From: Balanoglossus misakiensis
Lineage: Eukaryota > Animalia > Hemichordata
Assembly: GCA_040954595.2 (NCBI GenBank)
Contig: CM082576.2
Location: 18,771,028 to 18,835,027 of the forward strand
Reading direction: 5' to 3'
DNA length: 64,000 nt
In this document: positions 23,496-64,000 of the stretch, piece by piece
Numbering within the stretch: position 1 is the stretch's first letter
Layout of the letters: every line of letters begins with the position of its first letter
Position numbers and translations under genes: made by a program
The notes under the pieces: model-generated
Told to the model about the DNA's origin: nothing
Seen by the model: only the letters and a program-made list of their open reading frames with translations
Databases searched by the model: none

Positions 23496-23644
23496 AAATA
23501 AAACAACAATACTGTTGAATTAACGGACGTTTTATTTTGAAATTGCTCTGTGGAAATATTTTTCACTTTGCCACGCGCGATGCCCGTCTTGTCACTTTTT
23601 GTCGTCTGCTTCATGTTTAATGCTCGATCCCGGCTGGATCCCGG

Positions 23645-23795
23645 CCTTGCCGTTGTATGGGCATGCGAACGATTCCACTTGTATGTATATGGTCAGAAAT
23701 TCACCATTGTGACAGACCACAAGCCGTTGGTCCACATATACAACAATCCAATTTCGAAACCACCTGCCAGAATCGAACGTTGGGCACTGAAAATC
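23645..23795 (+). mobile_element. Ty3/Gypsy LTR retrotransposon RNase H fragment (copy 1)
   Basis: LAVVWACERFHLYVYGQKFTIVTDHKPL...PARIERWAL is the typical Gypsy RNase H signature. Only ~50 codons remain. Confidence 0.9.
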
Positions 23796-24000
23796 AACAA
23801 CAGTTAAATCAAAACTGATGTACCTAAAGACAAGCATGAAATAATGCATCAACTTGATTTTTATGAACAGTTTGGGAAATTTGAGAATATTATCTCAGAA
23901 GGAAAAACTATCTACTTTCTCACCTTGAATAAAGTTGATATTTCACCAAAAATTACAGTGAAGCAATAAAATTTTTGATGAGGAAACTTCTCAATTGTCA

Positions 24001-24683: not shown

Positions 24684-25015
24684 CCTATTTTGCTTTAATT
24701 TTTTGTTTGAAACTTTCATATCAACTGAAGAGTTGTTGACGTTTGACCTTGGATGTACTGAGGTCACCATACACACTCACATTTGTCTGTGTCATAATCA
24801 CAGACTGAAGCAAAGTAAAATTTTTTGATTTTTACCCATGATTTTTTTTTCAAAAATCGACCAAATAAATAAAACAACAATACTGTTGAATTAACGGACG
24901 TTTTATTTTGAAATTGCTCTGTGGAAATATTTTTCACTTTGCCACGCGCGATGCCCGTCTTGTCACTTTTTGTCGTCTGCTTCATGTTTAATGCTCGATC
25001 CCGGCTGGATCCCGG

Positions 25016-25166
25016 CCTTGCCGTTGTATGGGCATGCGAACGATTCCACTTGTATGTATATGGTCAGAAATTCACCATTGTGACAGACCACAAGCCGTTG
25101 GTCCACATATACAACAATCCAATTTCGAAACCACCTGCCAGAATCGAACGTTGGGCACTGAAAATC
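25016..25166 (+). mobile_element. Ty3/Gypsy RNase H fragment (copy 2)
   Basis: Identical to 23645-23795. Confidence 0.9.
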
Positions 25167-25993
25167 AACAACAGTTAAATCAAAACTGATGTACCTAAAG
25201 ACAAGCATGAAATAATGCATCAACTTGATTTTTATGAACAGTTTGGGAAATTTGAGAATATTATCTCAGAAGGAAAAACTATCTACTTTCTCACCTTGAA
25301 TAAAGTTGATATTTCACCAAAAATTACAGTGAAGCAATAAAATTTTTGATGAGGAAACTTCTCAATTGTCAACATACATACATACATACATACATACATA
25401 CATACATGCATAAATACATACATACATACATACATACATACATACATACATACATACATACATACATACATACATACATACATACATACAATTTAAAATA
25501 ATTTAGGGAGTGATTAAGACTTCAACTTGGACTCTATTGATAATAATATAACTCTTTGTAATAAATGCCATCGGTGCTTAAATCTTCATTATATTATACC
25601 AGTGTATTGATGGTGTAAATCACGCTATTTGATTGGTCGAGACACGACACGTGACCGTGATATATTAGCCATATACCACAGTCATATATCATAGTCAAAG
25701 AAAATGCCTTTTTAAAATGTTTAATGCAAAGTTTCAATATACTGGCATAATATAATAGCAATAAAACACCCCAGTCATGGTATACCACTCGATTTTGACC
25801 AGTTCAACTCCATATACGCACTCGCTATCGCTCGTGCGTATATGTCGTGAACTGGTCAAAATCTCGTGGTATACCATGGCTGGGGGTGTTTTATTGCTTA
25901 AATATTAAATCAAGTCAATCAATGTGCACAAACATTACACACACACTCATTAATACATAGAGACAGACACAGACAGACACATACACACTCACT

Positions 25994-35362: not shown

Positions 35363-35482
35363 CGCACCAATATAGAAACATTGTATATTGATCTGAACTC
35401 TCCTCCATATCCTTTGCCAAGTCAAGGTAGTATTAATTACAGTGGATTTACTGTAGAACAATTGGCTGCCATGTTGGGTGAG
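35363..35482 (+). pseudogene. MED25: MED25 exon, copy A (in-frame TAG and a 1-bp deletion)
   Basis: HCILI/NSPPYPLPSQGSINYSGFTVEQLAAMLGE with AG/GT boundaries; resembles MED25 CLLICNSPPY. Confidence 0.85.
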
Positions 35483-35759
35483 GTAAGTAAGCGATGTAAA
35501 ACATTTCATACAACACTGCATACTAACAATAGTCATATCAACCTGACAAGGGAAGATGAAAAAAGCCTAAGCCCCTTTGAACAGCTGTATTTTCTTGGAA
35601 TCTGGTTTTATAATACACTTTGATTGATTCCCTTACGAAAAAGTTCTATAGAACTTCTATTGCTTTTCAATAAAAATTTCTATTAAGAATCAATGGATAT
35701 TCCATGGAAACTCAATGGAATTTCTATGGAAATTCTATTGACTTCTATGGACTTTTGGC

Positions 35760-36525
35760 CACTTTTCAATTAAACTTCTATAGAAGAGATATAGATTTCA
35801 ATTGATTTTCTATAGAAGAGATATAGATTTCAATTGATATTCTATTGATTTTCTATAGAAGAGTTATCGATGTGTATTGATTTTCTATAGAAGAGATATA
35901 GATTTCAATTGATTTTCTATTGAACTTCTATAGAAGAGTTATAGATGTGTATTGATTTTCTATAGAAGAGATATAGATTTCAATTGATATTCTATTGATT
36001 TTCTATAGAAGAGTTATCGATGTGTATTGATTTTCTATAGAAGAGATATAGATTTCAATTGATTTTCTATTGAACTTCTATAAAAGAGTTATAGATGTGT
36101 ATTGATTTTCTATAGAAGAGATATAGATTTCAATTGATATTCTATTGATTTTCTATAGAAGAGTTATCGATGTGTATTGATTTTCTATAGAAGAGATCTA
36201 GATTTCAATTGATTTTCTATTGAACTTCTATAAAAGCGTTATAGATGTGTATTGATTTTCTATAGAAGAGATATAGATTTCAATTGATATTCTATTGATT
36301 TTCTATAGAAGAGTTATCGATGTGTATTGATTTTCTATAGAAGAGATATAGATTTCAATTGATATTCTATTGATTTTCTATAGAAAAGTTATCGATGTGT
36401 ATTGATTTTCTATCGAAGAGATCTAGATTTCCATTGATATGCTATTGATTTTCTATAGAAGAGATATAGATTTCAATTGATTTTCTATTGAACTTCTATA
36501 GAAGAGTTATAGATGTGTATTGATC
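35760..36525. repeat. Left subterminal tandem array of the CACTA (~32/43-bp subunits)
   Basis: Repeats of ttttctatagaagagatatagatttcaattga and variants containing ttctattga. Confidence 0.92.
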
Positions 36526-36849
36526 CTGTATTATCTGGTTACCAAAGACAGAGGGGTGGGATTGGGGCAAAAAGATTGATATTTATAAAAAAAAATACTT
36601 CACTGAATACTCAGCATATTCTTTCAGTCTGTTGTTTAATATTAACACATAAATGTGCTAAATACAGTGTTGCCTCAGTCAAATTAGTTTTCTGCTGGCT
36701 TTCAGTGAAATATTTGAGAAAAAACCAACATACTCATCAAATTAAAACTTAACATTTTATTGCAATAAATCAATAAAAAAGGTGACATGAAAAATAGAGT
36801 TTAAATAAATAAAAATAAGCAAAACACATAAATGAAACAGTTAACCACA

Positions 36850-39800
36850 CTACTTGTGTTTTGCTTCGGAGTAAATTTTCATTTTAATGTACTGCTCCAC
36901 CTCAGCAACCTTGCAGTCAAACTTGCTGCATACAATATCTGTGGGGAAACAGAGAAAAATAATTGCTGAATGAAATTGTACTGAACCAAAGCTCAAACCT
37001 TAGAGATGTCTTTGTTTGCCATACTATATTTTTTTTTCTAAAACCTAACCGCCAGAAACAAAGAACAAACTAAATGAAAATATATCAAGGTTACGGTAGA
37101 GAGAATGGTATATTTGATTTGCAGTCCCTTAAACGCTTTTACAACTTTTTAAAGATGGCCTATCTCATTCCACATACAGGTCTCCATTAGCAGACCAAAG
37201 CAGATTTTGCAAAAGCACTGCAAAATTTGCACCCTATCTACAGCAGGTTACACTATGTTAAAGAGGTATACATCACTGATCACTCCAAATATACAAAATG
37301 CCAATATATCTTTGTGTATTCCTATGACCTAAAATAGCAAATTAATAATTGGAGATGATAAGTAACTTAATACCTACATACCTTTAATGGCTCTTATTTT
37401 GTCGGCATCCAGCGCTGGTTTGGGTAAAGAACCCTTGACTGAGTTGCACACTCTGCCACTATACGAATGAGTCCTGAGTGTTTCCCTATCAAACACCACT
37501 GCCATCAAATCATACGTCATTTTCTTCGCTGTTGATTCGTCAACGCGGCTCAGCTGCTTGGCAGTTACTATCATCTCATCATTGACCAAAATCTGAAAAA
37601 GACCAAAATAATTGGTAACACTAGAGGCAGACACAAAATAAATATGATTTCTGTCATAGAAAACCTGATAAAATAGAAAGTACAGTAAAAACTCTATCAC
37701 AGAGTTCTTACAATACTTTCTATTTTCTATGAAATCAACAGCTCTAACAATACAACCACATTTTCCATGGAAGTAAAGTTGCAGAGCCATGATCTGTTCT
37801 AAACAGAGTTGCAATCATCAGGTCTGCAGATAAATAAACAAAAACTTTATGACCAAAATAATTAAATTCTTTGTTTTGCATCCACTCAGATTTTGATAGG
37901 TAAGTGCACAAGTTCAGAAACACAGAAATTTTTAACAGGTAAATTTAATATTTACTCGATAGTTTCCATGTAATACAAGCACCTTAACAAGAATCCCAGC
38001 AGAAACTAATTTTTCACCCTGTTAAGTTGCACTCAAATGTGACATTCTGCAAGCATGCAGGTGTTCCAATCACATTTCCCAAAGCATGTATACAAAAAAT
38101 TTGCAGGCAGAAAAGTTTTTTTCATGAAATCTCGCAAAACATACACATGCAGAACAAAGAATTTTCTTACTTAGGCCATATGGTTGAACCTAAGAAGCAG
38201 AAGTATTATTTGAATGACTATTACTATATCTATGCAGATTCCTGAAATCACACAGTCATGATAAATTGAAATAGATATCAACAGTTACCTCTTCACTGTT
38301 CAATGGGGCATCATGTGTTCCACAGGAGTTATTTGTCTTTGAGACTGCAGGTGCACCAGTCTTTACACCAAATGTTCTTTTTACATCAGCAATTTGTCCA
38401 AGCAAGCCAGGTAACTCTATACCATTTGAAAAGATTAGAAAATAGAGGTATAGGACATATGTTCATTGATTTAACTCCAATAGTTCATAGGAAAAGGAAT
38501 AAAAAAGAGACAATCCTGGCAAAAAAATATTGTTAACCAATAAGACAGTGGACCATCATCCATAAACAAAATTATTTTAATTGTGGTGAACTGAGATGTT
38601 TACATACTGACCAGCATTATCAAACTATTGTCAAGTAACTACAAAACACATAGTTTGAGAAAGCTGGTCACAAATGAAGGCTTTCATTGGTGCTGAAAAA
38701 GGTAAGTTACAGCTTGCCCAGCTTAGTCATCATGTACAAGTGAATAAATTAAATGTTTTTCATTTATAAATTAATTATGGTAACATTTTACTTTGTATTT
38801 CAAAACATATATGGAGTCCTTGATACTTCAATTTCTCGTCAAAAAAATGCTGAAAATGATGTTCTTTTGTGATATTCATGAGTATTTTCAAAAACAATCA
38901 TTCTGTGGCATATTTTGGCTGTTGACTTTTGATATTTCTAAAAATAAAACCAAAAGAACACTGACAAAATAATTTGATTCAGCTAAAACCTACTCATTGC
39001 ATTAAAAATATACAAGAACTAAAACAATCCACTGACTTTATTCAATGCGTGTATCAATATTCTTTTACCTTTTAACACTCGAAGAGAATAGCGTAGTGCA
39101 GCATTTTCCTCCTTCAATTCCCTTATTTCTTGGTGTAGCTTGCCCTCATCATAGCCTTCTGAGCCACTGGACACTGGTGTTGAAGCACGGAATGAACTCT
39201 AGAATGCAGAGGAACATTAATGAAATAGACTAAAAATCACAGTTGTCAACAATAACAACACAGTTCATACATGGATTTCAACATGCTTGTGATATTTACC
39301 CATCAACAGCACTGAACTGCAGTCACGTTTTGATGGAAATATTATTAGTTTCAATAATTGCATAACTTTGCTCACATTTTAAAGATACATTTTGCAGGGG
39401 TTGCGTTAACCCCATATTTTGCTTCCCGAACTTTTCAGGGGGACTCTTACTTTTTACACAGAGGGGTCCCATCTCTCACATAAATACAAAAATTTTAATT
39501 TCCTGTCTTTAATTTCATGTGACAGGGACTCATTCTGAGCAAACACTAGTGCAATCCCTGTTTCATAATTAAGCCACACAAGCTCACAACACTCTCTTAT
39601 ACGTCAGCATTATTTTAGCTTTTGTGCAAGTTTGGAAGTAAAAGTATATGCTTCAGGGGCAGAAATTGTAGCGTATGACATTGCCAGTACTTACAGACTT
39701 AAGTGACTGGACATCCTCCTCCATTTTTTTACGAACTTCAGATGTCTTCTTGCTTTCTAACTTTCTCAGCAAATTTAAAGACGAATTCTTTTGGCTGATC

Positions 39801-40677
39801 TTCTTTTTTTTATTCAAGTTATTTTTTTCCTGAAAAAGAAATGAAATGATTATTGTGAGATACTTCTGAACACTTGGCATGGAGTTTTGAAAATGGGTGT
39901 TTATATTGACAACGAGAAATTAATATCATCTGTACCTAGATAAATCATATTGAATTCTGCATCAGCCACATGGTAGTTAAATATCAACTTACCGGTACAT
40001 AACCATCATCATCATCTTCGCTGTCGGTGTAGATTCTCTTTGGTGCCTTTTCACGTTTCCCCCGTCCATATTCTGGAGTCTTAATGTTTGTGTTCACCCC
40101 TTTTTTGACATAGACGTTGGCTAGTCGCAACAGCTCCTGCCTGTCATCTGTAAAGATAAACATTATGACCTGGTTGTGAAAAACACACACACACACAACT
40201 GAATGAGAAAATTTTGCTGACGATCAAAAATGCACAACACAAACCACGTAAAAAAATTGTGTCACAAAGTAAAACAAAGGGGTTGCTGGCTTTCCTGGCA
40301 ACTTGTTTTGTTATGCAAATAGTATAACAATGAACAGGAAGTAAACAAGCTGTGTTTGGTTCAAGGGAGCCCAAGACCCTGGGATCGAGATAAAGGTAAC
40401 TTTCTACAATGAACGTCTTCAACATTGGGAAATGTTTCTACCTGACACGTTTTTTTTGAGTTTTGAAAAAATCCAAACAATTCTTACCGCTAAACTTGAT
40501 AACTCTTGCTACATATCTCGCCGGATCTCTTCCTGCCTTCTTTGATGGCCACTGGACAGCACAATCTTCGTCGAAGTCAAAACTCATAACGTCGTCTTCA
40601 TCGAGATCTTCTATCCAATTCGTCTCACCAACTTCAACACTCTTTTCTTCGTAAAAATCAAATAAAGAGTACTTCAT
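36850..40677 (-). CDS. Transposon accessory protein with coiled coil and C-terminal BEN domain; 7 exons, 345 aa
   Basis: Exons 40677-40488, 40147-39993, 39829-39695, 39198-39069, 38416-38289, 37592-37382 and 36938-36850 are all GT-AG and phase-compatible, totalling 1038 nt without internal stops. BEN-like KMTYDLMAVVFDRETLRTHSYSG...KPALDADKIRAIKDIVCSKF...YIKMKIYSEAK. AATAAA lies ~90 bp downstream. Confidence 0.85.
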
Positions 40678-40760
40678 GGTGACTAGATCGATGTTCGTAA
40701 ATAGAGAAATCTTAAGCGGAGCTGGTAGCGAGTGACGCGTGGTGTGTCTTCGGTGGTTAC

Positions 40761-41080
40761 TGAATCAGCTGTAAAAGGTCAGGAGTTCGCCGACTATTTA
40801 TTTACCTTGATGCATGCTGGGTAAGAAATGCGGGCGTTTATGAGAAGAGTCAAAGGTCATGCAGTAGGTCATGTGATTTTAAAATACAGCATTTCTTAGA
40901 GCTGAGATGTTATTTGAAAAAAAAATACGTTAAGATATCATTCACTTTATTTTGAAACGCCAAAATTCACCTTAAAGTAGTACCACAGATCGATCGGAAC
41001 GTTAAAATTTGTACTTGAGATGATGCCATATCTATCACCCAGCATGCATCGCAGTCACCGACGCTTGCACAGCTGATTCA
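40761..41080. promoter_or_regulatory. Putative bidirectional promoter with mirrored motifs (two Staf/ZNF143-like sites, two TGAATCAGCTGT)
   Basis: GATGCATGCTGGGT at 40809-40822 mirrors ACCCAGCATGCATC at 41037-41050. TGAATCAGCTGT at 40761-40772 mirrors ACAGCTGATTCA at 41069-41080. The region lies between divergent ATGs at 40677 and 41117. Confidence 0.6.
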
Positions 41081-41116
41081 CTAGATCATCAGATCGCTGT
41101 TCGTCGCAGAAGAGAC

Positions 41117-44100
41117 ATGTCGAGGGTCGTGCGCGGTCCATACAAGTGTTACCTAAATGATACCGAAGTCAGTATTCCAAAGAGAACCTTGTTTAGATGG
41201 CGAATTCGCGATAAACATGGTTTAGAGGTAAGTGTAGCTCTTTTTTACCACGGCCTGAAGTATGCGCCGCGCTTGCTGCAGCTGCAGTTCCGTAGCCTGC
41301 AACATTCCTCGATGTGTGTGTGTTACGGAAAGGTGCCCCTTCCGTAACACACACATCGAGGAAAGTTGCTGGCTACGGAACTGCAGCAAGCGCCGGGCGA
41401 AAACTGGCATTGTCTGTCATTTCTCGGTGATTGTTATAATTATAGGGTGTCATAGGTAGTGTATGCATTTTATTTCTGTTCTTTTTGGTTTTATTAAAGT
41501 CCAAAAGGCTAGCTTGTACATCTCCAACTCTTTGTCTAAATATAGCAGCATTTATGCTGCTGCAGTATTTTTTTAATTGAAAAATAATTTAGTACTACGA
41601 ATATTGAGGGAAAAAAACAAAAAAAAACAGGTCATTACTGACACCAGCCTACTTTTCTTTATAAGAACTATTAAAGCATTAGCACTTTCCTCTGAGATTT
41701 AGAATCAAATGATGTAATATGCATTATGTAGTCCCGCTATACTGAAATACATATCTTAACCACATTCTATTCATATCTTTCAGACTGATGATATCGCCAT
41801 CGACACTGACAGTTGTTCTGTAAATAGTGACTACCAATCTGAAAGTGGCAATGATGAATATTTATATGATGGTAACGCCTCTCATGACAGTTATCGAAGT
41901 GGACTAACTTTCTCTCACAGAGATACAGACATTGATGAATACAGCACTACAGAACCAGACACAGATGACTATTTATCAGCCGACGAAACATCAGATGATC
42001 AGACATCATTCATCATAGATGACCAAGTACCAGCTCAGGAAATGTCACATGTCAACTTACTGAGTGACGGAAGTGGAGAGATTGAAGAAAGTGAAGAAAT
42101 TATACACACACGCATATCAAACAAAAACACTAATGGGACGGGCACAGGAGAAAGTGGTGATGAATTGGTAGGTTCTGCTTTTGACTTTAAAAATTTTATG
42201 GTTGCCAATTTGAATTTTGTGCGGTAACTTACCTTAATCACTTATGATCTATGACTTTTTACATTATTTTGATGATTTACTTTCAAAGTAAGTGTACTTA
42301 CTGAAGGGTGTGCATTTACAACTTGAAAAAGTGGACATGGTGCAATATACACATTGATTCCTTGACAGAAACATGACAGTGATACACACCAAAATGTCTC
42401 TATTCTTTTAGCAATGTGACCAACTTTTGATCATCGGAAATTTAAAAATTGTTTATTTGTTTAGCTATTACAACATCGTTTAGTATTCCACTAATCAATC
42501 TGTTTTATATGTTAATGCAACTTAATACACATCGTTATTATAAAATACAAGTATGAAAGCTAGTGTCTCTATGGTTGTGAATGCATTTATTTTAATTCTC
42601 AAGGAGGCCTATTATTTAGAGCATGACCCCTGTTTTCAAAATCTGGTGATCAATGCATAAGAGATCAGAGTCTGTTTTCACAAGGTCAAATCAAGGTTAA
42701 ATGTGTCAGTCCTGTGAGTGTGACCATTGCATTGTTCATGTTATTTCTGGTTGTCCTATTTTTCTAAATGTACTACTATGTTTCTAATTCTCAGGGAGCT
42801 GAAGAAGGAACTGGAGAGATGAATGTCACAACAGAACAGCTTTGTCTACTTCTCCAGGCTTTTGTCCTCAGACACCGACTTACGAAAGATGCTCTCAAAG
42901 ACTTGTTGCACGTCATTAACCTGATAGCACCAGAAACTGTACCAGCAACACCATACTTTTTTAAGAACTGTTTTGCTGAGACAGCTGTGTCGTGTAAGAA
43001 GCACTTCTATTGCTGTAGTTGTATGGCATATCTTGGTTCCGAGGGCGAAATTCAAACTGACACCACTTGTGGTAGCTGTAATGAGCCTTTCAGTGAGCAA
43101 ATATCTGTAGCAAATAACAATTTTTTCATTGTAATGCCAATCAAGGACCAACTTGTAGATTTATTAGAAAATCAGAATATTAATAGTGAATTGTCAGTTT
43201 CAACTTTATTGGATGGCTCCATTTATCAAGATCTCCTTGAAAATGGTATCATAAGAGATAATGACTTAACCCTTCTCTGGAATTGTGATGGGGTCCCTGC
43301 CTTTAAGTCCTCTGGTTTCTCAATATGGCCCATTCAGTGTGTAGTGACAGAACTGACTCCAAAATGTCAAAAACAAAATATTCTCATGCCTGGCCTATGG
43401 TTTGGTCAATCCAAACCACAGATGGATTGTTTTTTGGCACCATTTGGTGAAGAATGTGTGAAATTGGGTAATGATGGTTTTACCTGGAGAAATCAAAGTT
43501 CTGGTGAGATAATCACAACATGTGTCCATGTGTTATTGTGTTCTTCTGATTCAGCTGCCAGGCCTTTGATGCGCAATTGCAAACAGTATAATTGGCAGTA
43601 TGGATGTGACTGGTGCCTGCACCCAGGGGAATACATAGCAAAGGGCAATGGTCATGCACGTGTATATAGTGTACAGGATCTTCCTCATCCTGAGTTGAGG
43701 AATAACGATCAGTATGAGGATTGTTGTAGGCAGGCGGTTGAAAGAGACCGACCAATATTGGGTGTGAAGGGACCCAGTGTGTGTATGTTGCTTCCCAATT
43801 TCGACATTGTGAAAGGGTTTGTTCCTGATTATTTGCATTGTGTTTTATTAGGGGTTGTCAGGCAAATCACCTCACTTTGGCTTGACAGTGAAAACAAGCA
43901 GAAACCCTGGTACTTAGCCCCTGCTAAACAACGTGTAATTAATTCCCGTTTGGTGCAGCAGTTTCCTCCAAATGAAATAACCAGGACACCACGATCGTTA
44001 GATTACAGAAAGTATTGGAAAGGTTCGGAGTGGAGGGCATTTCTCCTTTTCTATTCTTTAATTGTTCTGAGAGGTGTGTTACCTGCAGTTTTTTCTGAAC

Positions 44101-45011
44101 CATTGGTTTTTGCTGGTTTTTGGAATCCACACGTTACTTCAGGAAAAAGTAACAGCCCGCTCTGTTGATCTGGCAGAGCAGGCAATCAGAAAGTTTGTGA
44201 CTCAAACTGAATGCCTTTATGGGAAAGAAGTGATGTCATTTAATATGCACATTCTACTGCATTTGTCTAGTAGTGTTAGGGAATGGGCACCTCTCTGGGC
44301 TACATCTTCCTTTGTGTTTGAAAGTCACAATGGTGTAATCATGAAGCTATTTCAGGGTACTCAAAGTGTGCCTTCACAGATATCAAACACATTCTGTCTG
44401 TGGAGAGATTTATCAAGAAGATCCACAATTATACCACAGGATAGTGATCTGAGGCCACTATTTGACAAATTGTCTAGAGGAATTGTGCATTTAAAGAGGG
44501 ACTTTCATAGCTGCTCAGGGGTTGTGGCCATGGGAGCTGCTGACAAACGGATATAAGATTGACAGACAGGTTAGCTGTAGAGGAGGCTGTGGGCCACCCT
44601 ATCTTGAATGTGAACGCCAAATATTACAAGAGATTCACTATATCAGGTGCTGTGTTCACAACAAGTAGCTACACTAGGGCAGCAAAGAGAACGAACCATT
44701 ATTTTCAGGGACAAGATGAGCAATTGTATGTAATAAGAAACCTTGTAATTCTTAGGCTAGGTTGCATATGCCAAGGTGATTGTCACTGTAATGAAAGATC
44801 ATTCCTGATAGCCAGTAGGTGTTTAAGTGGGAGGTCAATGTTTGTTGACAATGAAATTGGCATACAGTGTACACATGTAAAACCACTGCGTGAGATTTCA
44901 CATGAAAGAATTGCTGTGCGACCGTCGTTTTTGAGACGTAAATGTGTAGTTCTTGGAATGGGTGAGTCAATTTACCTCTCACCACTCCCCAACCCTTTTG
45001 AAAGGGACTGA
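41117..45011 (+). pseudogene. EnSpm/CACTA DDE transposase, ~900 codons, two frameshifts
   Basis: Exons 41117-41227, 41784-42167 (acidic) and 42795-45011. Motifs CxxC...CxxC, WNCDGVPAFKSSGFSIWPI, CSSDSAAR, YGCDWC, DYLHCVLLG, WKGSEWRAF and SFVFESHNG. The frame breaks in a T-run at ~44090 and at ~44555. AATAAA at ~45148. Confidence 0.92.
41270..41392. repeat. Long near-perfect inverted repeat in transposase intron 1
   Basis: cgcttgctgcag...ttcctcgatgtgtgtgtgttacggaa pairs with ttccgtaacacacacatcgaggaa...ctgcagcaagcg. Confidence 0.9.
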
Positions 45012-45340
45012 TAAGGGCTGCAAAAAAAGTCTGTAGGTAGCAAACACTTACCCCAGTACTGTAGTTGAGAGTCCGTTTCTTCTGATTTGTATTTATATAC
45101 AGATTTGTATATGTACCAGTGTTTTGCAGATATCATTTTGAAATTGTAATAAATGAATTATTTACAGAGACATATTTGTCAAGTATTCATTCACAATATA
45201 AAATAGAATGATTAAGAATGAATAGCTGTGTGTTTGAGCTGAATGTATACTGGTATCTGTTTGCTCGGGGTGAACTGGTTACTTTCCATGGCCAAACGAT
45301 ACAATCTTCGCCTAAATCAAAATCCTTAGCGTCCGGTCAT

Positions 45341-46365
45341 GGTTGGCAATATTTTTCAATAGAAAATCTATTGACGGCAATAGAATTCAATAGAGACAGT
45401 GGATTTTTGTTAAAATACACTGTTCACATTGAAATGTATGTAGTTGGGGCAAACCTGACAAATTCATTTGTCGTTTTGTGTTGATTATGTGCACACATTT
45501 GCTAAAAACTAGGGGAAAATGTTTCTTTCACCTATTTCATAGTTGGCAATATTTTTCAATAGAAAATCTATTGACGGCAATAGAATTCAATAGAGACAGT
45601 GGATTTTTGTTAAAATACACTGTTCACAGTGAAATGTATGTAGTTGGGGCAAACCTGACAAATTCCTTTGTCATTTTGTGATGATTATGTGCACACATTT
45701 GCTAAAAACTAGGGAAAAATATTTCTTTCAACCATTTCAAGGTTGACAATATTTTTCAATAGAAAATCTATTGACGGCAATAGAATTCAATAGAGTCAGT
45801 GGATTTTTGTTAAAATACACTGTTCACAGTGAAATATATGTAGTTGGGCCAAACCTGACAAATTCATTTGTCGTTTTGTGTTGATTATGTGCACACATTT
45901 GCTAAAAACTAGGGGAAAATGTTTCTTTCACCTATTTCATGGTTGGCAATATTTTTCAATAGAAAATCTATTGACGGCAATAGAATTCAATAGAGACAGT
46001 GGATTTTTGTTAAAATACACTGTTCACAGTGAAATGTATGTAGTTGGGGCAAACCTGACAAATTCCTTTGTCGTTTTGTGTTGATTATGTGCACACATTT
46101 GCTAAAAACTAGGGGAAAATGTTTCTTTCACCTATTTCATGGTTGGCAATATTTTTCAATAGAAAATCTATTGACATCAATAGAATTCAATAGAGTCTGT
46201 GGATTTCTGTTAAAATATACTTTGTTCACAGTGAAATATGTGTAATGGGGGCAAATCTTACAAATTGCTTTGTCATTGTATGATAATCATGTTAAAACCT
46301 ATTAAAAATCATTTTTCACTTATTTCATGCTAGGTAATATTTTCAATAGAAAATCTATTGACGGC
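45341..46365. repeat. Right subterminal 200-bp tandem repeats (5 copies plus a partial)
   Basis: Units start at 45341, 45541, 45741, 45941 and 46141; each holds TCAATAGA-AAA-TCTATTGA. Confidence 0.95.
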
Positions 46366-46756
46366 TAGTTTAATGGAAATCATCTGTATAATTCTATAGA
46401 AAATAATATTCTATTGATTTTCTATTGAATTCTACACGTTTCTATAGAGGTCTATAGAGTTCTATAGAACCTTTTTCGTAAGGGTTGAAATGTGTTTTAC
46501 ATCTAAATGCATCGTTTTGGGAACATTTTCTAGTATGTATGTGATTATTAAATTGAACTTGTATATTTGCTGGGGCAACTAAATTTTCAGTAAAGATAAG
46601 GAATGCCCAATGTTCGGAATGTCTTCAAAAAGATGACAACAACTCAAGTCTCAAAAACTCTTTTGTTTTTAAGTTTGAATTGTAGTTGTCACATCATTAA
46701 CGACTTCACATGTGAATGCCAAATTTCGATTCTTAGCAAATGTTGTATTTTCACAG

Positions 46757-46910
46757 AGAGGAGTCCATTTCTCAATCATATCACCCCGCAAACTGCCTGA
46801 ACTCCAAAAACTTAACTTCAAAGCATATGGTGAAGTACAGATGGTACCAATGAAGGATTATGCGGCTGATCCACACCACATGATACTTCTCAAAGGTTAT
46901 CAACTTGCAG
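46757..46910 (+). pseudogene. MED25: MED25 exon, copy A (end of the VWA domain; open frame)
   Basis: RGVHFSIISPRKLPELQKL...DYAADPHHMILLKGYQL resembles MED25 RGIHFSIVSPRKLP...DPRHMVL. Confidence 0.88.
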
Positions 46911-50413: not shown

Positions 50414-51123
50414 CACACAAGAACAGAAACCTTGTATATTGATCTGCAACTCTCCTCCACATCCCTTGCCAAGTCAAGATAGTATTAATTACAGTGGATT
50501 TACTGCAGATCAATTGACTGCCATGTTGGGTAAGGTAAGCGATGTAAAACATTTCATACAACACTGCCTACTAACAATAGTCATATCAATCTGACAAGGG
50601 AAGATGAAAACAAAAACATCTTTTCAAACTAGCTTACTGTGCGGACCAATTTCATTAAGCCCCATTTAACAGGAATTCTGGTTTTATAATTAACTTTGAT
50701 TGATTGACATGTGTTTTACATCTAAATGCATCGCTTTGGGAACATTTTCTAGTATGTATGAGATTATTAAATTGAACTTGTATATTTGCTGAGGGCAACT
50801 AAATTTTCAGTAAAGATGAGGAATGCTCAATGTTTTGATTGTCTTCAAAATGATGACAACAACTCAAGTCTCAAAAACTCTTTGTTTTGAATTTTGAATT
50901 GTTTTTGTTGCATCAGTAACGACTTCACATGTGGATGCCACATTTGATTCTTAGCAAATGTTGTATTTTGACAGAGAGGAGTCCATTCCTCAATCATATC
51001 ACCCCGCAAACGGCCTGAACTCCAAAAACTTAGCGACAAAGCGTGAAATACAGATGGTACCTATGAAGGATTATGCGGCTGATCCACACCACATGATACT
51101 TCTCAAAGGTCATCAACTTGCTG
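50414..51123 (+). pseudogene. MED25: MED25 exons, copy B: 50414-50534 (open) and 50975-51123 (frameshifted)
   Basis: CILICNSPPHPLPSQDSINYSGFTADQLTAMLGK, then RGVHSSIISPRKRPELQK followed by a 5-bp deletion. Confidence 0.85.
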
Positions 51124-51820
51124 GTAGGTATATGTTGCTATGCAAATATTTGCAATCATACCATCCAGATTCTAAAGTTCACAGGTCAAATATATAACTT
51201 GTTTACTTGGCCATTTACAACCAATTCATCATTTTGTGGTTTGTTAAGATTTTCATTACTCTAAATTGGTACTTCCATAAAATGGTTGTAATATTTATTA
51301 CACATCACGTATTGTTATGCGCTCCTGGTTGGCTAATACTAAATATGACAGAACTTCATGACCTCTGCACACGATCTGAGGCTTATGGAAGTTATTGTCG
51401 CGAGTGATGCAGTGTATTCTGTTGCAGTACTTTCACAAGCCAGCCTATTATTTCCCATCATGTCAATGCCTGGCCAATTAATTACACATCCTCCTGAAAA
51501 TTGTTGGTAGGTGGGCAATCAATTTCCTTGGTTACATCCTGGATGAAACACTGGTACAGGTTCAAGGCAAGTTTAGTGACATTGTGTGATTCCACATCAG
51601 AATTTCACATCAACTGTATAATCCTCCAATTTTGTGTTTCAGAAAAATTGGTGTCCAGTGGTGATACAAAAGAGGTTGCCATAGACAAACCTACAACCAT
51701 AGCAACCACTTCAGTGTCTACAACCACTACCACAACACAGCCACTGAAACCCGCATCAACAGTTACCATGTTTACAGCATCTACCTCCAGTATGACCTCA
51801 AATCCTCTCAAATCAAATGT

Positions 51821-56297: not shown

Positions 56298-56945
56298 TAA
56301 TAGAATCTCACATTCCCAAGGACCTGTGATCATATTTCTCACATGAGTTGGGGATTTTTGTCCCACACGAGCCGCAGGCGAGTGTGGGACAAAAAATCCC
56401 CAACGAGTGTGAGAAATACGATCCCAGGTCCTTGGTGTGTGAGATTCGTTTTCTCACACGACCAGAAATTTGCAATATTAACGTTTATTTACAATAAAAG
56501 GACTAAATCTATAAAATACCAACTGATAACTGCATGACCAGTCATATATTGATCCGCCCCTCAAAATATAGTCCCCATTTCATCACGAGTTTACAGTACA
56601 CACATGCTATAAAAATGTGCTCAACACATTTTAATATGGAGATTGTTTCCAGTGGTATAAATTCAAGCGATATCTAGAAAATACAACCATGTTTTTTAGT
56701 CTGTCGCCAACCACGTACACCACTGTCGTCTGCACATGACCTGATCACATTGTAGTTCAGGTTTGTGTACAACACATCACACAATTGGATAATATTTGTT
56801 CGTTCTGAGGGGTATGAATATCATTATCCAATCAGAGCTCGTGTCAGATAACAGTTGTCTGTGTGCGCATTAACACAGAGTGTGGGATCAATTTGATCCC
56901 ACACTCTCTATCCCACACTCCCAGCGGCCAGGAGTGTGAGAAAAA
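56298..56945 (-). mobile_element. Hairpin-ended repeat, same family as 29495-29953
   Basis: Foldback at 56299-56447 with apex cacacgagccgcaggcgagtgtg; other end cccagcggccaggagtgtgagaa. Confidence 0.75.
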
Positions 56946-57862
56946 TTATTCCCATCTTGTTATAAATCTGAGCCCAGGTGTCTTTGGTGTGAGATTCCAG
57001 TAGTCAAGAGTAGGCTTACCTTGAATAATGTAATGCTTGTAAATAATTTATAATTTCTTCTTACCCTCCAGATATGAATGTCACAGTGGTGGAAATGCGT
57101 GCCAACACTATTGTCAGAATACCCATGGTAGTTATCTCTGCGCTTGCAGACCAGGATTCTATCTGCTGGAGGATGGCTATGCATGTGGCGGTATGTAACT
57201 GTGGATATTGATCTCTTCTGTGGCTACACTGTTTGGGGATTGTATATTGCTATGGTTACAATCAGCTAAACACACATCCTGTCAGTCCATTGCACACATT
57301 TTAAAATTTGAAATCAACCGCACACTCGTACTGAACACATGTTTGTTGAAATTGTATCTCAGAATTTTTCCATTTATAATTATGCATAATATAAACAAAT
57401 TAACAAATGTGAAATTTTATCTTTGAAAATTTGTTTGCAAGGGTGAAAAAGTAATCTGTTTTTTTAAAAATCAGACAAAGTTTTGCTGACAGGGTACACG
57501 AGTTTCAGGGGATTTTGTTAAAATGAGAATGATAGAGAGTGTTAAAATTCTTAGATTCTGAGATTGCCATGGATATTGAGGACTTTGATGTAAAAACAAT
57601 TAATTGATCAAGAAATATGTGGTTAAGTATATGTGTCATCAACCTCACACTATACTATAAGACTGTCTGATATATTTATGCACAAGTACAATGTATTTTC
57701 ACTACTTATATGCATAACTCAATCAAATTAACATAATTTATCGACCTATAGCTAAATAAATTACCACAGCAAAGAATAAATATACACTTAGAAAATTCAT
57801 ATAGTTTTCATCTCATTTTAAAGACATTATAAATGCTTCTCCGAGGGGTACAGTAATTTTTA

Positions 57863-58417
57863 GGGTAAGCCTAATTCAAGATTCACGTTTCAAGATTCAC
57901 GTTTCACGTTCCACAGCCCAAGATTCATATTCTGATTCAGATTCTAGTCTTGTCTAATATGTTTATGCTGCCGTAACCAGGGGTGCGTACGATTGTTTAT
58001 TGTCCTTGATCCCTGCCCAAGCAAGGTTCCCCAAATATTCTGTTCGATTAACGCGTGACGTCATTGTCGGGTATCTCTTCAAGTTCAGTTTCAACAACAT
58101 TTTTCAAAGAGAGATGCACCCTATTTATTATTTTCTAACACATGAATGACCCTAGGCCTGAGATCGCACCATGGCCGGCAATCTTGGTATTCACAGATAC
58201 TTTTAAGCGTAATTCTGATATAATTGATAGGTTTAGGTATATTTTACAACCAATAACTTAAGCAAAGGACTAATTCCTATATTCTGAATCAAGTGAAAGT
58301 AATATTGTAGATGGCGAAAGGACGTGACAAGACTCGAATCTGAATCAGAATATGAATCTTGGGCTGTGGAACGTGAAACGTGAAACTTGAAACGTGAATC
58401 TTGAATTAGGCTTACCC
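57863..58417. mobile_element. Mutator-like (MULE) MITE
   Basis: ~90-bp TIRs GGGTAAGCCTAATTCAAGATTCACG... and a perfect 9-bp TSD TAATTTTTA. Confidence 0.85.
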
Positions 58418-59374
58418 TAATTTTTAATGGGTATATTCTTGATAACTCATCACCATGAATGATCATTTCAAAACTTAACAAGGCATATGGCTAAAGAGGA
58501 TTCAGTGTTTGTGCACCTTCTATCTGCTATGCTGGATCTATTGACAGTTTTCAAAGGGGTTTAAAGACTCGTCTTTTTATTCAGTACTTTCTATTTCATT
58601 CCATTGCTTTTTTGGTTAATAGGGACTGTCTTTCAGAACTCTTTGGTTTGTTTCGTGTTTTTAAGTGTAATTTATTATCCTTTAAGCTTTCACTTGTTTT
58701 CTAATTTTATTATTTTCTGTAGAAAATGCACTGAGATGTATGTGTATTATGTTTGTCAGGAAATAAATAATAATAAAATTAAAAATAATAAACTATCTTT
58801 GATTTCAGATGTCAATGAATGTATGGAGAGAGCAGATCTTTGTGAAGGCCAGTGTGTGAATACAGCAGGCTCTTTTTATTGCACTTGTGTTGTGGGATAT
58901 TGATTGGTCAATGGAGAGTGTACAGGTAAGACCAGCACAATATGTGGGCAACGAAAGGTCCTGTATCTGTAACTTTTGAATTTTTATTCAATATTATTCT
59001 GGGTGTCACCCATCATTTCTTGTTCAGCTCGGTGAAGCTAGGTAAGCAATGTTGTTATTGTTTAAACATTGTATTCAAGCCTGGGTCTGGACTTGGATGC
59101 AATTTGTCAATAATAACAGTGATTGGTAACTGCATGTTTACATAACTGGCTAACTGTTAAAGAGACCAGCTGTTCTTTTTGCTGTGTGTACAGTACACAT
59201 GCCATTGGCAGCTTATGGCTCAGTCAGTGTTTGCCTGTTGATTTCTCTATGTGTGTGTGTCTGTCTGTCTGTATATGTACTCCGGTGTAGACTTTTTTAT
59301 TGTGTTATCCCTGAATGGGACCACTGTGTCCTTAACGCGATGTTTTACACTCAGCAGCGATAGTTTGTCTAACA

Positions 59375-59830
59375 CGAGCCAAAATATCCCCAACTCGTCT
59401 GAGAAATCTTATCCCAGGTCCTAAGGTTGTGAGACTAATAGAATCTCACACTCCCAAGGACTTGGGATCATATTTCTCACATGTGTTGAGGATTTTCTGT
59501 CCCAAACAAGCTGCAGGCGAATGTGGGACAAGATATCCCCGACGAGTGTGAGAAATACGATCCCAGGTCCTTGGTGTGTGAGATTAGTTTTCTCACACGG
59601 TCACAAATTAGCCAAATTCGTTAAATAAATGACTCTTGAACTGTCATCTGGTACATTGTAGATTCAGTATCGCGTCATTGGATAACATTTAGCACATGTT
59701 GTTAAAGAACTCTTTGTCATCCAATCAGCGCTCGCATCATATACAGCTCTCGATTCAGTGAGAATGTGGGATTGATTTGTTCTCACACTCTGATCCAACA
59801 CTCTCAGCATGCCAGGAGTGTGAGAATCTA
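59375..59830 (-). mobile_element. Hairpin-ended repeat, third copy
   Basis: Reverse complement of 29495-29953. Confidence 0.75.
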
Positions 59831-60946
59831 TTACGAGTTTGAAATCTTAGGTGAAGAGTTTATCAATTTCACTGCCAACCCTGTAGGGCATTCTGGGATA
59901 TGTGCTCATGCCAAAGCACAAACAGCCATGACCTGACAGCTCAGTTTGTAAATCATTTCTACAAATCCACAAAGAGACTCAAAGTTTAGAAAAGTTGTGT
60001 CTGTTAGAAATATTAGAAATATTACTGTTAATACTTAATTTCAAAGCCATGTGAATTTGTTCACTTTAATAGGGAAATTTTTAAAGGAAGGGAGGATTGG
60101 TATTGACTTGAATAATTACAATGGATGTTTTTGTTCTCTATATTCAGATGTGAATAATGAGTGTTCAGATTCTGTTTGTGCTGGAGGGTGTCTCAATGCA
60201 GAGGGTGGATTCAGCTGTAATTGTGGTGATGATGGTTTCTCTCTGAGTGCAGATCATGTCAATTGTTTAGGTAAGTTTTTTTTGAGTGGGGAGGGGATAG
60301 ACCAACAATTGCTTTGCATTTCCTGCCTCAAAAGGGCGCTTACACAAGTTGTAAGTGGCAAAGATTACAGCGAGTCACCATGTAAAAAAAATAATAAATA
60401 AAAGTTATCAGGCACTTTCCAAAGTTACACATTTAGAAAAAAATGAGTTTGTTGTCTCATGTGTGATATTTTTGGCTAACAAAACACTAGCGTCTAATGT
60501 GGTTACTACATTGTTTGTTTATCAGTATACAGTACTGGTACATATAAACATATGATATGACCAAGTTATATGCCAGATGATATTTATCAAGTTTCACACA
60601 ATTTTGCTCTCTTGTATATTTTTTTCAAAGCCAACTGTACATGTAATTCAGATGTATTCATTCAAACACAATGTATCATATTTGTGTTTTCAAGCTGGTT
60701 GGTCACCATGCCAACAAGCGTGTTACAACACACCAACCAGTTACCAGTGTGGTTGCAGACCAGGATTTAAGTTGCACAGAAATCAACAAACATGTGTTGG
60801 TGAGTATCTACAATTGGGAGAAAGTAAGATGTAGGTGTTTGTGCAATGTAAGTGTCCAATACATGTACATGTATATGTGACACTGAAATTACACATTGTA
60901 CAGTCAATAATTGGTAAATGTCTATTATTCATGACACAAATCAACA

Positions 60947-62058: not shown

Positions 62059-63061
62059 TGACAGTGATATAACTATGTTATAATGTTACATCGACAATAC
62101 ATAAGTTTGGGGATATGTTGTCTCAAATGATCAAATTGAGACAAATTATCCCCATCTTGTTATAAATCTGAGCCCAGGTGTCTTTGGTGTGAGATTCCAG
62201 TAGTCAAGAGTAGGCTTACCTTGAATAATGTAATGCTTGTAAATAATGTATAATTTCTTCTTACCCTCCAGATATGAATGAATGTCACAGTGGTGGAAAT
62301 GCGTGCCAACACTATTGTCAGAATACCCATGGTAGTTATTGCTGCGCTTGCAGACAAGGCTTCAATGTGCTGGAGGATGGCCATGCATGTGCAGGTATGT
62401 AACTGTGGATATTGATCTCTTCTGTGGCTACACTGTTTGGGGATTGCATATTGCTATGGTTACAATAAAACATGCATCCTGTCTGTCCATTGCACACATT
62501 TTAAAATTTGAAATCAACCGCACACTCGTACTGAACACATGTTTGTTGAAATTGTATCTCAGAATTTTTCCATTTATAATTATGCATAATATAATCAAAT
62601 TAACAAATGTGAAAACTTATCTTTGAAAATTTGTTTGCAAGGGTGAAAAATTAATCTGTTGTTTTAAAAATCAGACAAAGTTTTGCTGACAGGGTACACG
62701 AGTTTCAGGGGATTTTGTTAAAATGAGAATGATAGAGAGTGTTAAAATTCCTAGATTCTGAGATTGCCATGGATATTGAGGACTTTGACGTAAAAACAAT
62801 TAATTGATCAAGAAATATGTGGTTAAGTATATGTGTGATCAACCTCACACTATACTATAAGACTGTCTGATATATTTATGCACAAGTACAATGTATTTTC
62901 ACTACTTATATGCATAACTCAATCAAATTAACATAATTTATCGACCTATAGCTATTAAATTACCACAGCAAGGAATAAATATTCACTTAGAAAATTCATA
63001 TAGTTTTCATCTCATTTTAAAGACATTATAAATGCTTCTCCGAGGGGTACAATAATTTTTA

Positions 63062-63606
63062 GGGTAAGCCTAATTCAAGATTCACGTTTCAAGATTCACG
63101 TTTCATGTTCCACAGCCCAAGATTCATATTCTGATTCAGATTCCAGTCTTGTCTAATATGTTTATGCTGCCGTAACCAGGGGTGTGAACGATTGTTTATT
63201 GTCCTCGATCCCCGCCCAAGCAAGGTTCCCCAAATATTCTGTTCGATTATCGCGTGACGTCATTGTCGGGTATCTCGTCAAGTTCAGTTTCAACAACATT
63301 TTTCAAAGAGAGATGCACCCTATTTATTATTTTCTAACACATGAATGACCCTAGGCCTGAGATCGCACCATGGCCGGCAATCTTGGTATTCACAGATACT
63401 TTTAAGCGTAATTCTGATATAATTGATAGGTTTAGGTATATTTTACAACCGATAACTTAAGCAAAGGACTAATTCCTATATTCTGAATCAAGTGAAAGCA
63501 ATGTAGATGGCGAAAGGATGTGACAAGACTCGAATCTGAATCAGAATATGAATCTTGGGCTGTGGAACGTGAAACTTGAAACGTGAATCTTGAATTAGGC
63601 TTACCC
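63062..63606. mobile_element. MULE MITE, duplicated copy
   Basis: Same TIRs and TAATTTTTA TSD as 57863-58417. Confidence 0.85.
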
Positions 63607-64000
63607 TAATTTTTAATGGGTATATTCTTAATAACTCATCACCATGAATGATCATTTCAAAACTTAACAAGGCATATGGCTAAAGAGGATTCAGTGTTTG
63701 TGCACCTTCTATCTGCTATGCTGGATCTATTGACAGTTTTCAAAGGGGTTTAAAGACTCGTCTTTTTATTCAGTACTTTCTATTTCATTCCATTGCTTTT
63801 TTGGTTAATAGGGACTGTCTTTCAGAACTCTTTGGTTTGTTTCGTGTTTTTAAGTGTAATTTATTATCCTTTAAGCTTTCACTTGTTTTCTAATTTTATT
63901 ATTTTCTGTAGAAAATGCACTGAGATGTATGTGTATTATGTTTGTCAGGAAATAAATAATAATAAAATTAAAAATAATAAACTATCTTTGATTTCAGATG

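What the first reader, a model, noticed from the sequence alone, without database searches (positions are those of the whole stretch)
35630..46484. Animal CACTA transposon with an intact head-to-head BEN-domain accessory gene
Seen: TIRs, TT TSD, an empty site, a transposase on +, and a 7-exon 345-aa open gene on -. That protein has an acidic N-terminal domain, basic NLS-like runs, a coiled coil (LHQEIRELKEENAALRYSLRVLK) and a C-terminal BEN-like domain; the ORF track shows it only as fragments. Established: plant En/Spm uses TnpA to bind subterminal repeats, and BEN domains are sequence-specific DNA-binding and chromatin modules. Inference: this is a two-component system in which a BEN protein plays the TnpA role or regulates silencing. 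BEN domains have been linked to transposons before, so novelty needs checking.
Basis: partly seen in the sequence, partly recalled or inferred. Interest (0 to 1): 0.8.

Follow-up and report, generated by a model that had tools for sequence, protein, structure and literature searches.

The report
Animal transposon carrying Tudor-BEN helper gene
This is a recently spread cut-and-paste transposon of an animal that carries, back to back with a broken transposase gene, an open spliced gene for a BEN-type DNA-binding protein, which likely binds the repeated palindromes at the element's ends and would do the helper job that an unrelated protein (TnpA) does in plant relatives.

Summary
The element spans 35630-46484, with 14-bp CCC-type inverted ends, a TT duplication and an empty site. 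The 7-exon, 345-aa minus-strand gene is open and hits Pfam BEN (E 6e-7). One contig from a probable RNA run joins exons 3-7 at the predicted borders, but carries one extra base that would truncate the protein. The 'acidic' N-terminus is predicted to fold as a Tudor barrel (Z 7.4). The transposase has two frameshifts, which the family's majority contig shares, so these copies are probably non-autonomous. The pairing is not a one-off capture. Among related loci, 7 of 8 with at least 6 kb upstream carry the same gene head-to-head, with shared intron positions, across all main transposase clades found. Most clades have their own end palindrome centred on AT, resembling known BEN sites (CCAATTGG, ACATGT). 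Best reading: a TnpA analogue, not a homologue, that binds the ends (0.55); binding is untested. Ten paper searches found no description, but Repbase and two key BEN papers could not be read. This scan has already noted the same pairing in at least four other genomes.

The parts
35628..35629 (.). left target-site duplication (TT)
   Evidence: empty-site joint
35630..35643 (+). left terminal inverted repeat, 14 bp, begins CCC
35645..36532 (.). left subterminal array (75/150-bp units) with 38 TCWATWGA palindrome-like motifs
36850..36938 (-). accessory gene exon 7: end of the BEN domain and stop; AATAAA signal at 36756-36761
   Evidence: joined to exon 6 in the X3 contig
37382..37592 (-). exon 6: N-terminal two thirds of the BEN domain
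   Evidence: Pfam PF10523 E 6e-7; PDB BEND6 E 1.5e-4, Insensitive E 1.1e-3; splice joints
38289..38416 (-). exon 5: linker
39069..39198 (-). exon 4: coiled coil
   Evidence: coiled-coil family CCDC92 E 2.6e-5, below its cut-off; long helix in the homologue model
39695..39829 (-). exon 3: basic, NLS-like run; the X3 contig has one extra base in the T-run after 39803
39993..40147 (-). exon 2: helix after the Tudor-like domain, basic and acidic runs
   Evidence: partial X3 cover inferred from variants and depth
40488..40677 (-). exon 1: start codon and predicted Tudor-like beta-barrel (63 aa)
   Evidence: pLDDT 86; KDM4C Tudor Z 7.4, rmsd 1.8 over 55 residues; junction to exon 2 not covered by any contig seen
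40678..41116 (.). 439-bp CpG-rich spacer between the two start codons, inferred bidirectional promoter
   Evidence: CpG observed/expected 1.19 against about 0.4 in both gene bodies
41117..41227 (+). transposase exon 1 (predicted)
   Evidence: GT donor; same N-terminal motif in full-length fish homologue P0146 and in L004
41784..42167 (+). transposase exon 2, acidic linker (predicted)
   Evidence: AG/GT ends, in frame
42795..45011 (+). transposase exon 3: Transposase_21 core, broken by two frameshifts; first frame stops at 44166-44168
   Evidence: Pfam PF02992; 93 homologues; homologues align across two or three frames
44089..44094 (+). frameshift 1 (T-run one base longer than in an ~80% relative)
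   Evidence: relative contig in X2 lacks one base here; majority X1 contig is gap-free over it
44535..44553 (+). frameshift 2 (approximate interval)
   Evidence: covered without gaps by the X1 majority contig, about 32 bases from its end
45337..46468 (.). right subterminal array (200-bp units plus terminal cluster) with 24 TCWATWGA motifs
46471..46484 (-). right terminal inverted repeat
46485..46486 (.). right target-site duplication (TT)
50704..50705 (.). empty site: single TT in the paralogous host segment

Best explanation
This is an animal EnSpm/CACTA (TRC-type) cut-and-paste element with two divergently transcribed genes, a frameshifted transposase and an open Tudor-like/coiled-coil/BEN gene, whose product likely binds the clustered palindromes at both ends and would act as a non-homologous stand-in for plant TnpA. 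Shown: ends, duplication, empty site, other insertion sites, both gene structures, the BEN domain, and the conserved pairing in relatives. Predicted: the Tudor-like fold. Inferred mechanism: BEN dimers bind TCWATWGA; the coiled coil builds higher oligomers that coat and bridge the two ends and/or keep the shared promoter active; the Tudor-like domain may tie the complex to methylated histones. These copies are probably moved in trans by an intact relative.
For: (1) 14 of 60 non-redundant related loci hold a BEN or N-terminal exon; this includes 7 of 8 with at least 6 kb upstream. All 20 hits lie upstream on the opposite strand, and reversed-sequence controls gave 0 hits. (2) Phase-1 intron donors sit at the same place in 5 of 7 BEN exons and 9 of 10 N-terminal exons. 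BEN hits fall in all four large transposase clades plus L052. In L052 the BEN exon lies inside 19-bp inverted ends with a GA duplication. (3) 62 motifs in the two ends and 0 in the 8.7-kb interior; 51 of 61 gaps are 10, 11, 20, 21, 32 or 43 bp, near whole helical turns. 30 of 81 loci have such a palindrome cluster against 0 of 81 shuffles; all five motif classes have a central AT. (4) The closest solved BEN structures are Insensitive, Bsg25A and BEND6. Insensitive binds CCAATTGG as a dimer and multimerises through its coiled coil to bridge distant sites (PMC6317261, passages). NACC1/2 bind ACATGT, and NACC2 prefers 10 nt between cores (PMC8887127, passages). (5) Plant TnpA binds clustered, family-specific terminal motifs (bioRxiv 10.64898/2026.08.24.746577, section 4; PMC2613891, passages). 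No Pfam HTH family was hit in 8 homologous transposases at E up to 0.5, a weak hint that this clade lacks the fused TnpA-type domain.
Against: Motif class follows the transposase tree as closely as it follows BEN type, so co-inheritance explains the pattern without BEN binding. The preprint says the TnpA-type DNA-binding domain is typically fused to the transposase in animals (section 6), and I did not fold the transposase to exclude this. The only spliced contig carries an extra base that would end the protein at 145 aa, and its alleles are those of sister copies, not this copy. Of 6 listed coding differences between this copy and the majority, 5 change an amino acid (table cut), so no purifying signal is seen at this depth. 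L048 (8.3 kb upstream) and 8 of 12 loci with 2-6 kb upstream gave no hit. BEND6, one of the best structural matches, was solved on methylated DNA, so a CG-type site is possible. Tandem amplification inflates the motif and spacing counts.
Confidence: 0.55

Rival explanations
1. The transposase itself reads the end arrays. The Tudor-BEN protein acts elsewhere, for example by steering the element to particular chromatin or by regulating the shared promoter through a different site.
For: Animal Spm transposases typically carry their own DNA-binding domain (preprint section 6). Motif classes track the transposase tree. The N-terminal barrel matches the methyl-lysine-reading half of KDM4C (residues 905-961; HTD-2 is 909-960 in PMC5114558, passages). 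The spacer is CpG-rich and holds no TCWATWGA motif.
Against: No HTH family was hit in 8 homologous transposases. The AT-centred palindromes resemble known BEN sites.
Confidence: 0.22
2. The protein binds the ends but works as a repressor or insulator that limits or shields the element, not as a helper of transposition.
For: Insensitive, its closest structural match, is a boundary factor, and BEN-solo proteins are described as repressors and insulators (abstract listing). The gene stays open and spliced in a family whose transposase is broken.
Against: Retention across all main clades with shared introns fits a required function at least as well. At about 0.3% divergence between copies an open frame needs no selection.
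Confidence: 0.17
3. The gene is a captured host BEN gene riding along with no role in the element.
For: Similar proteins are annotated as ordinary genes (BEND6-like, Elba-like) in a hemichordate, fishes and insects. No purifying signal is seen among the few copy differences.
Against: Same position, strand and intron phase in 14 loci whose BEN exons are only 11-68% identical to each other.
Confidence: 0.04

Closest known systems
Animal CACTA/EnSpm 'TRC' elements (SmTRC1, Aedes and Tribolium TRCs; PMC1636069, abstract and section 6 read)
   Same: CCC termini, 2-bp duplication, Transposase_21 domain, internal repeats near the ends, about 5-10 kb long.
   Different: The parts read describe one alternatively spliced gene and no second, divergently transcribed BEN gene.
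Plant En/Spm (CACTA) with TnpD and TnpA (PMC2613891 passages; bioRxiv 10.64898/2026.08.24.746577 sections 4, 6, 21)
   Same: Same transposase superfamily; dense, family-specific subterminal motif clusters; a second protein with a DNA-binding domain.
   Different: TnpA is a tandem tri-helical HTH protein derived from the transposase and restricted to flowering plants; plant ends are CACTA with a 3-bp duplication. Here the partner is an unrelated Tudor-like/coiled-coil/BEN protein on the opposite strand.
BEN-solo factors: Drosophila Insensitive and Bsg25A/Elba1, human BEND6 (PDB 4IX7, 4X0G, 7YUL)
   Same: One C-terminal BEN domain behind a coiled coil; the homologue model matches at TM (target) 0.87-0.90, rmsd 1.4-1.5.
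   Different: These are host genes, not transposon cargo; the element's protein adds an N-terminal Tudor-like barrel; its site is not determined.
PIF/Harbinger two-gene transposons (recalled, not checked here)
   Same: Transposase plus a separately encoded DNA-binding partner, often in opposite orientation.
   Different: Different transposase superfamily; the partner is Myb/SANT-like; 3-bp duplication.

Membership tests
EnSpm/CACTA (CMC), animal TRC type | Transposase_21 (TnpD-like) DDE transposase | tested here: met
   PF02992 28.7 bits, cut-off 28.6; 93 homologues, best E 1e-120
EnSpm/CACTA (CMC), animal TRC type | Short inverted ends starting CCC | tested here: met
   14-bp perfect repeat; criterion from PMC1636069
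EnSpm/CACTA (CMC), animal TRC type | 2-bp target-site duplication | tested here: met
   TT against the empty site
EnSpm/CACTA (CMC), animal TRC type | Subterminal repeat arrays | tested here: met
   62 motifs in the ends, 0 inside
Autonomous element | Uninterrupted transposase with the full catalytic triad | tested here: not met
   Two frameshifts and a stop at 622 aa. Two invariant aspartates lie before the break; the conserved glutamate motif lies after it (its catalytic role is recalled, not from a call)
BEN-domain proteins | Pfam PF10523 above the curated cut-off | tested here: met
   30 bits on exon 6 alone, cut-off 23.2
BEN-domain proteins | BEN fold | tested here: met
   Shown on the whole-length homologue P0116 (Foldseek E 4.5e-8 to 4IX7); the window's own exon 6 matches 7YUL and 4IX7 by sequence
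BEN-domain proteins | Sequence-specific DNA binding | not testable with these tools
   Inferred from homology only
TnpA (plant Spm accessory protein) | Tandem tri-helical HTH domain derived from the transposase | tested here: not met
   The accessory protein's folded domains are Tudor-like and BEN; TnpA definition
TnpA (plant Spm accessory protein) | Binds the subterminal motifs and activates or mobilises the element | not testable with these tools
   Circumstantial only
KDM4-type hybrid Tudor (methyl-lysine reader) | Hybrid-Tudor barrel fold | tested here: inconclusive
   Z 7.4, 7.1 and 5.7 to three interdigitated Tudors, next hit 3.6; Foldseek probability 0.99 but E 0.55; no sequence match; Z under 8 can be a common arrangement
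KDM4-type hybrid Tudor (methyl-lysine reader) | Three-residue aromatic cage | tested here: inconclusive
   F8 and W43 are nearly invariant and position 55 is Y, F or H in all 11 rows. The end registers would put F8 and Y55 on the KDM4C equivalents of KDM4A F932 and Y973, but no residue-level alignment was printed

The most novel reading that the evidence does not exclude
A whole branch of animal EnSpm transposons replaced the TnpA-type DNA-binding module with a Tudor-BEN protein that reads clade-specific palindromes and methylated histones. It is a required second component of their transpososome and a source from which host BEN-solo genes were domesticated.
Probability: 0.3. Interest if true: 0.8.

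Novelty: new variant of a known kind. Interest (0 to 1): 0.5.

Why it matters
Animal EnSpm elements are usually treated as transposase-only. If a BEN protein is their standing partner, tests of their activity need two genes, and the element supplies a natural matched set of BEN domains and candidate sites (five palindrome classes) for learning how BEN domains read DNA. It would also suggest a transposon route for the scattered, multi-copy 'BEND6-like' and 'Elba-like' genes annotated in fish and invertebrate genomes. This copy is only a fair model, because its transposase is broken; L052, L015 and L006 are complete relatives worth examining, though I did not check whether their transposase frames are open.

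Tried and rejected
No whole genome is held for this window, so copies could not be collected and dN/dS could not be computed. A word-based protein search with exon 6 found nothing; the full HMMER search found 36. A profile search added few new relatives, so co-occurrence could not be tested through neighbouring accession numbers. Viral contigs gave no transposase relative; prokaryotic genomes gave one 3-kb contig in a MAG, probably host contamination. No run is on record as RNA. Run X4 (another organism) showed only low-depth pieces and was not used. A Pfam scan of 145 of 167 upstream minus-strand frames from 10 loci found no further BEN or DUF4806 exon; the 22 frames left out lay between the accessory start and the transposase in L004 and L008. 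The N-terminal profile matched no PDB sequence, and the Atlas search for exon 1 gave only unnamed clusters with a low recognition score. Introns were considered as an explanation of the transposase breaks and rejected, because homologues run continuously across both. Assembly error was rejected as the main explanation because the majority read contig has the same sequence. The tree is the quick version, without bootstrap, on 58 rows after 21 near-duplicate loci and short matches were dropped. The bacterial promoter scan is irrelevant to an animal sequence. No complex prediction was run. Abhiman 2008 and Pan 2023 are not held.
Full report
ELEMENT. The element runs from 35630 to 46484. Its first 14 bases are the exact reverse complement of its last 14, begin CCC, and are flanked by TT on both sides. 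A paralogous host segment later in the window aligns to both flanks and carries one TT at the junction. Contigs from two DNA runs join 35627 to 46485, i.e. lack the element plus two bases. In run X1, two contigs leave each end into other flanks. Summed contig depth is about 660-790 on the main interior contigs, against 23-62 for diverged relatives. The tool warns that depth is not a copy number; I read it only as 'many near-identical copies'. CCC ends with a 2-bp duplication are the marks of animal CACTA-related (TRC) elements (PMC1636069, abstract and section 6).

ACCESSORY GENE. Seven minus-strand exons with GT-AG introns give 345 codons without a stop. Exon 6 passes the Pfam BEN cut-off alone, matches BEND6 and Insensitive chains, and gives BEN clusters in the Atlas. 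Of 16 HMMER hits scanned out of 36, 15 are BEN proteins. The closest whole-length relative, P0116, annotated 'BEND6-like' in a hemichordate, aligns over residues 2-112 and 170-343. Its model shows a beta-barrel, a long helix and a BEN domain that matches Insensitive at E 4.5e-8. The window's own exon 1 folds confidently (pLDDT 86) and matches interdigitated Tudor domains: KDM4C Z 7.4, ARID4B 7.1, RBBP1 5.7, next hit 3.6. The KDM4C range is the methyl-lysine-reading half (PMC5114558, passages). Conserved F8, W43 and Y/F/H55 could form a cage, but this is inferred from end registers only.

SPLICING. Run X3 is labelled 'DNA?' by the tool. Only four of its contigs lie on the element, all exonic; one 845-nt contig joins exons 7, 6, 5, 4 and 3 at exactly the predicted borders (three joints in table 5, the fourth from table 8). 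Its last 101 bases fit exon 2 by depth and variants. I infer a transcriptome; a processed copy is the alternative. So 4 of 6 introns are seen, 1 is inferred and 1 is untested. Against: this contig has one extra base in a homopolymer, absent from the X1 and X2 contigs, that would end the protein at 145 aa, and it carries the majority alleles rather than this copy's. Three short X3 contigs lie on transposase exon 3 and its 3' end.

TRANSPOSASE. The plus-strand gene starts 439 bp from the accessory start, across a CpG-rich spacer. It is a Transposase_21 protein 43-48% identical to unannotated proteins of an oyster and several fishes. Seven homologues tested align across two or three reading frames: there are two frameshifts, and the first frame stops at 622 aa, before a conserved glutamate motif that I recall as the third catalytic residue. 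The X1 majority contig spans both breaks without gaps, while an ~80% relative in X2 lacks the extra base of the first. The amplified family is therefore probably non-autonomous. A rare intact copy could be hidden, because contigs drop minor variants.

RELATIVES. A metagenome scan returned the best 80 of 154 loci with a related transposase; their hosts are unnamed and may be few species. Profiles seeded from non-locus proteins found 7 BEN exons in the first round; 4 pass the Pfam cut-off, one falls just short and two give no Pfam hit. After iteration there were 7 BEN and 13 N-terminal hits, all upstream on the opposite strand, with none in reversed controls; the iterated E-values are inflated by training on the hits. 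After dropping 21 near-duplicates, 14 of 60 loci carry at least one exon: 7 of 8 with at least 6 kb upstream, 4 of 12 with 2-6 kb, 3 of 40 with less. Short contigs explain many misses but not L048. Phase-1 donors recur at the same place in 5 of 7 BEN and 9 of 10 N-terminal exons. BEN hits fall in all four large clades of a quick transposase tree plus L052. L052 is a complete element with 19-bp ends and a GA duplication enclosing its BEN exon; L015 and L006 have CCC-type ends enclosing theirs but no clean duplication. In L004 the two genes start about 310 bp apart. The pairing is therefore old and inherited with the transposase.

ENDS. The motif TCWATWGA occurs 38 times at the left end, 24 at the right and never in the 8.7-kb interior; 51 of 61 gaps are near multiples of a helical turn, though tandem amplification inflates this. 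30 of 81 loci have a cluster of one palindromic 8-mer, against 0 of 81 shuffles. The classes are TCTATAGA, ACCATGGT, ACTATAGT, CATATATG and AGTATACT; each of the first four marks a transposase clade, the fifth was seen in one locus, and all have AT at the centre. Insensitive binds CCAATTGG as a dimer and multimerises through its coiled coil (PMC6317261, passages); NACC1/2 bind ACATGT (PMC8887127, passages). This makes the accessory protein a good candidate reader, but clade-wise inheritance alone would give the same table.

MECHANISM. Most likely (0.55) the protein binds the end palindromes and oligomerises, serving end pairing and/or activation of the element. TnpA binds clustered, family-specific terminal motifs in plants (bioRxiv 10.64898/2026.08.24.746577, section 4; PMC2613891, passages). 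So the BEN protein is at most an analogue, and the transposase remains a rival binder (0.22). Eight homologous transposases hit no HTH family, which is weak support for BEN. A repressor or insulator role (0.17) and a passenger (0.04) are the other rivals.

NOVELTY. Ten literature searches (listings only, except the papers cited above and passages of PMC10789644, PMC11601247, PMC5704228 and bioRxiv 2023.12.06.570431) showed no description of a BEN partner gene in EnSpm elements. Repbase, Abhiman 2008 and Pan 2023 could not be read, so absence from print is not established. Earlier notes of this scan report the same pairing in at least four other genomes, two of them with a Tudor-like module, and a BEN gene in a Tc1-type element of this genome; these are unchecked AI notes and are not counted as evidence. 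This case adds spliced junctions, a family amplified with a dead transposase, and a clade-by-clade table of AT-centred palindromes. Verdict: real, a new variant of a known kind, interest 0.5.

Noticed in passing
window 35390-35480, 46757-46905 and 50440-51130: The element sits in an intron of a MED25 (Mediator subunit 25, VWA domain) fragment that is present twice in tandem (Pfam E 5e-5 and 7e-15); the second copy is frame-broken. Read depth on these flanks is in the thousands, so the MED25 piece seems to be part of an amplified repeat, perhaps captured by another element.
   Followed up: partly
window 1-23500: A 78-bp satellite with higher-order units that changes orientation near 9.7 kb and 17.2 kb.
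   Followed up: no
window 23541-23804 and 24912-25175: Two identical short fragments of an LTR-retrotransposon RNase H domain next to the satellite.
   Followed up: no
window 41281-41387: A hairpin with 41-bp arms, 95% complementary, in transposase intron 1, probably a small MITE.
   Followed up: no
window 58565-60831: Several EGF-like exons on the + strand; 56937-58811 is duplicated at 62137-64000.
   Followed up: no
runs X1 and X2 on window 35620-46494: At least two diverged relatives (about 80% identical in the transposase, depth 23-62 in X1) share end structure; one contig also matches accessory exon 2. They are candidates for the trans-acting transposase.
   Followed up: no
L048:1-8260: The only long locus without a detected accessory exon; it has a long branch in the tree and a DDE_Tnp_4 fragment at its far end.
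   Followed up: partly
proteins P0097, P0130-P0133, P0011, P0147: One catfish genome holds several near-identical 'Elba-like' BEN proteins and several related transposases, some on chromosomes of the same length; adjacency was not shown.
   Followed up: no
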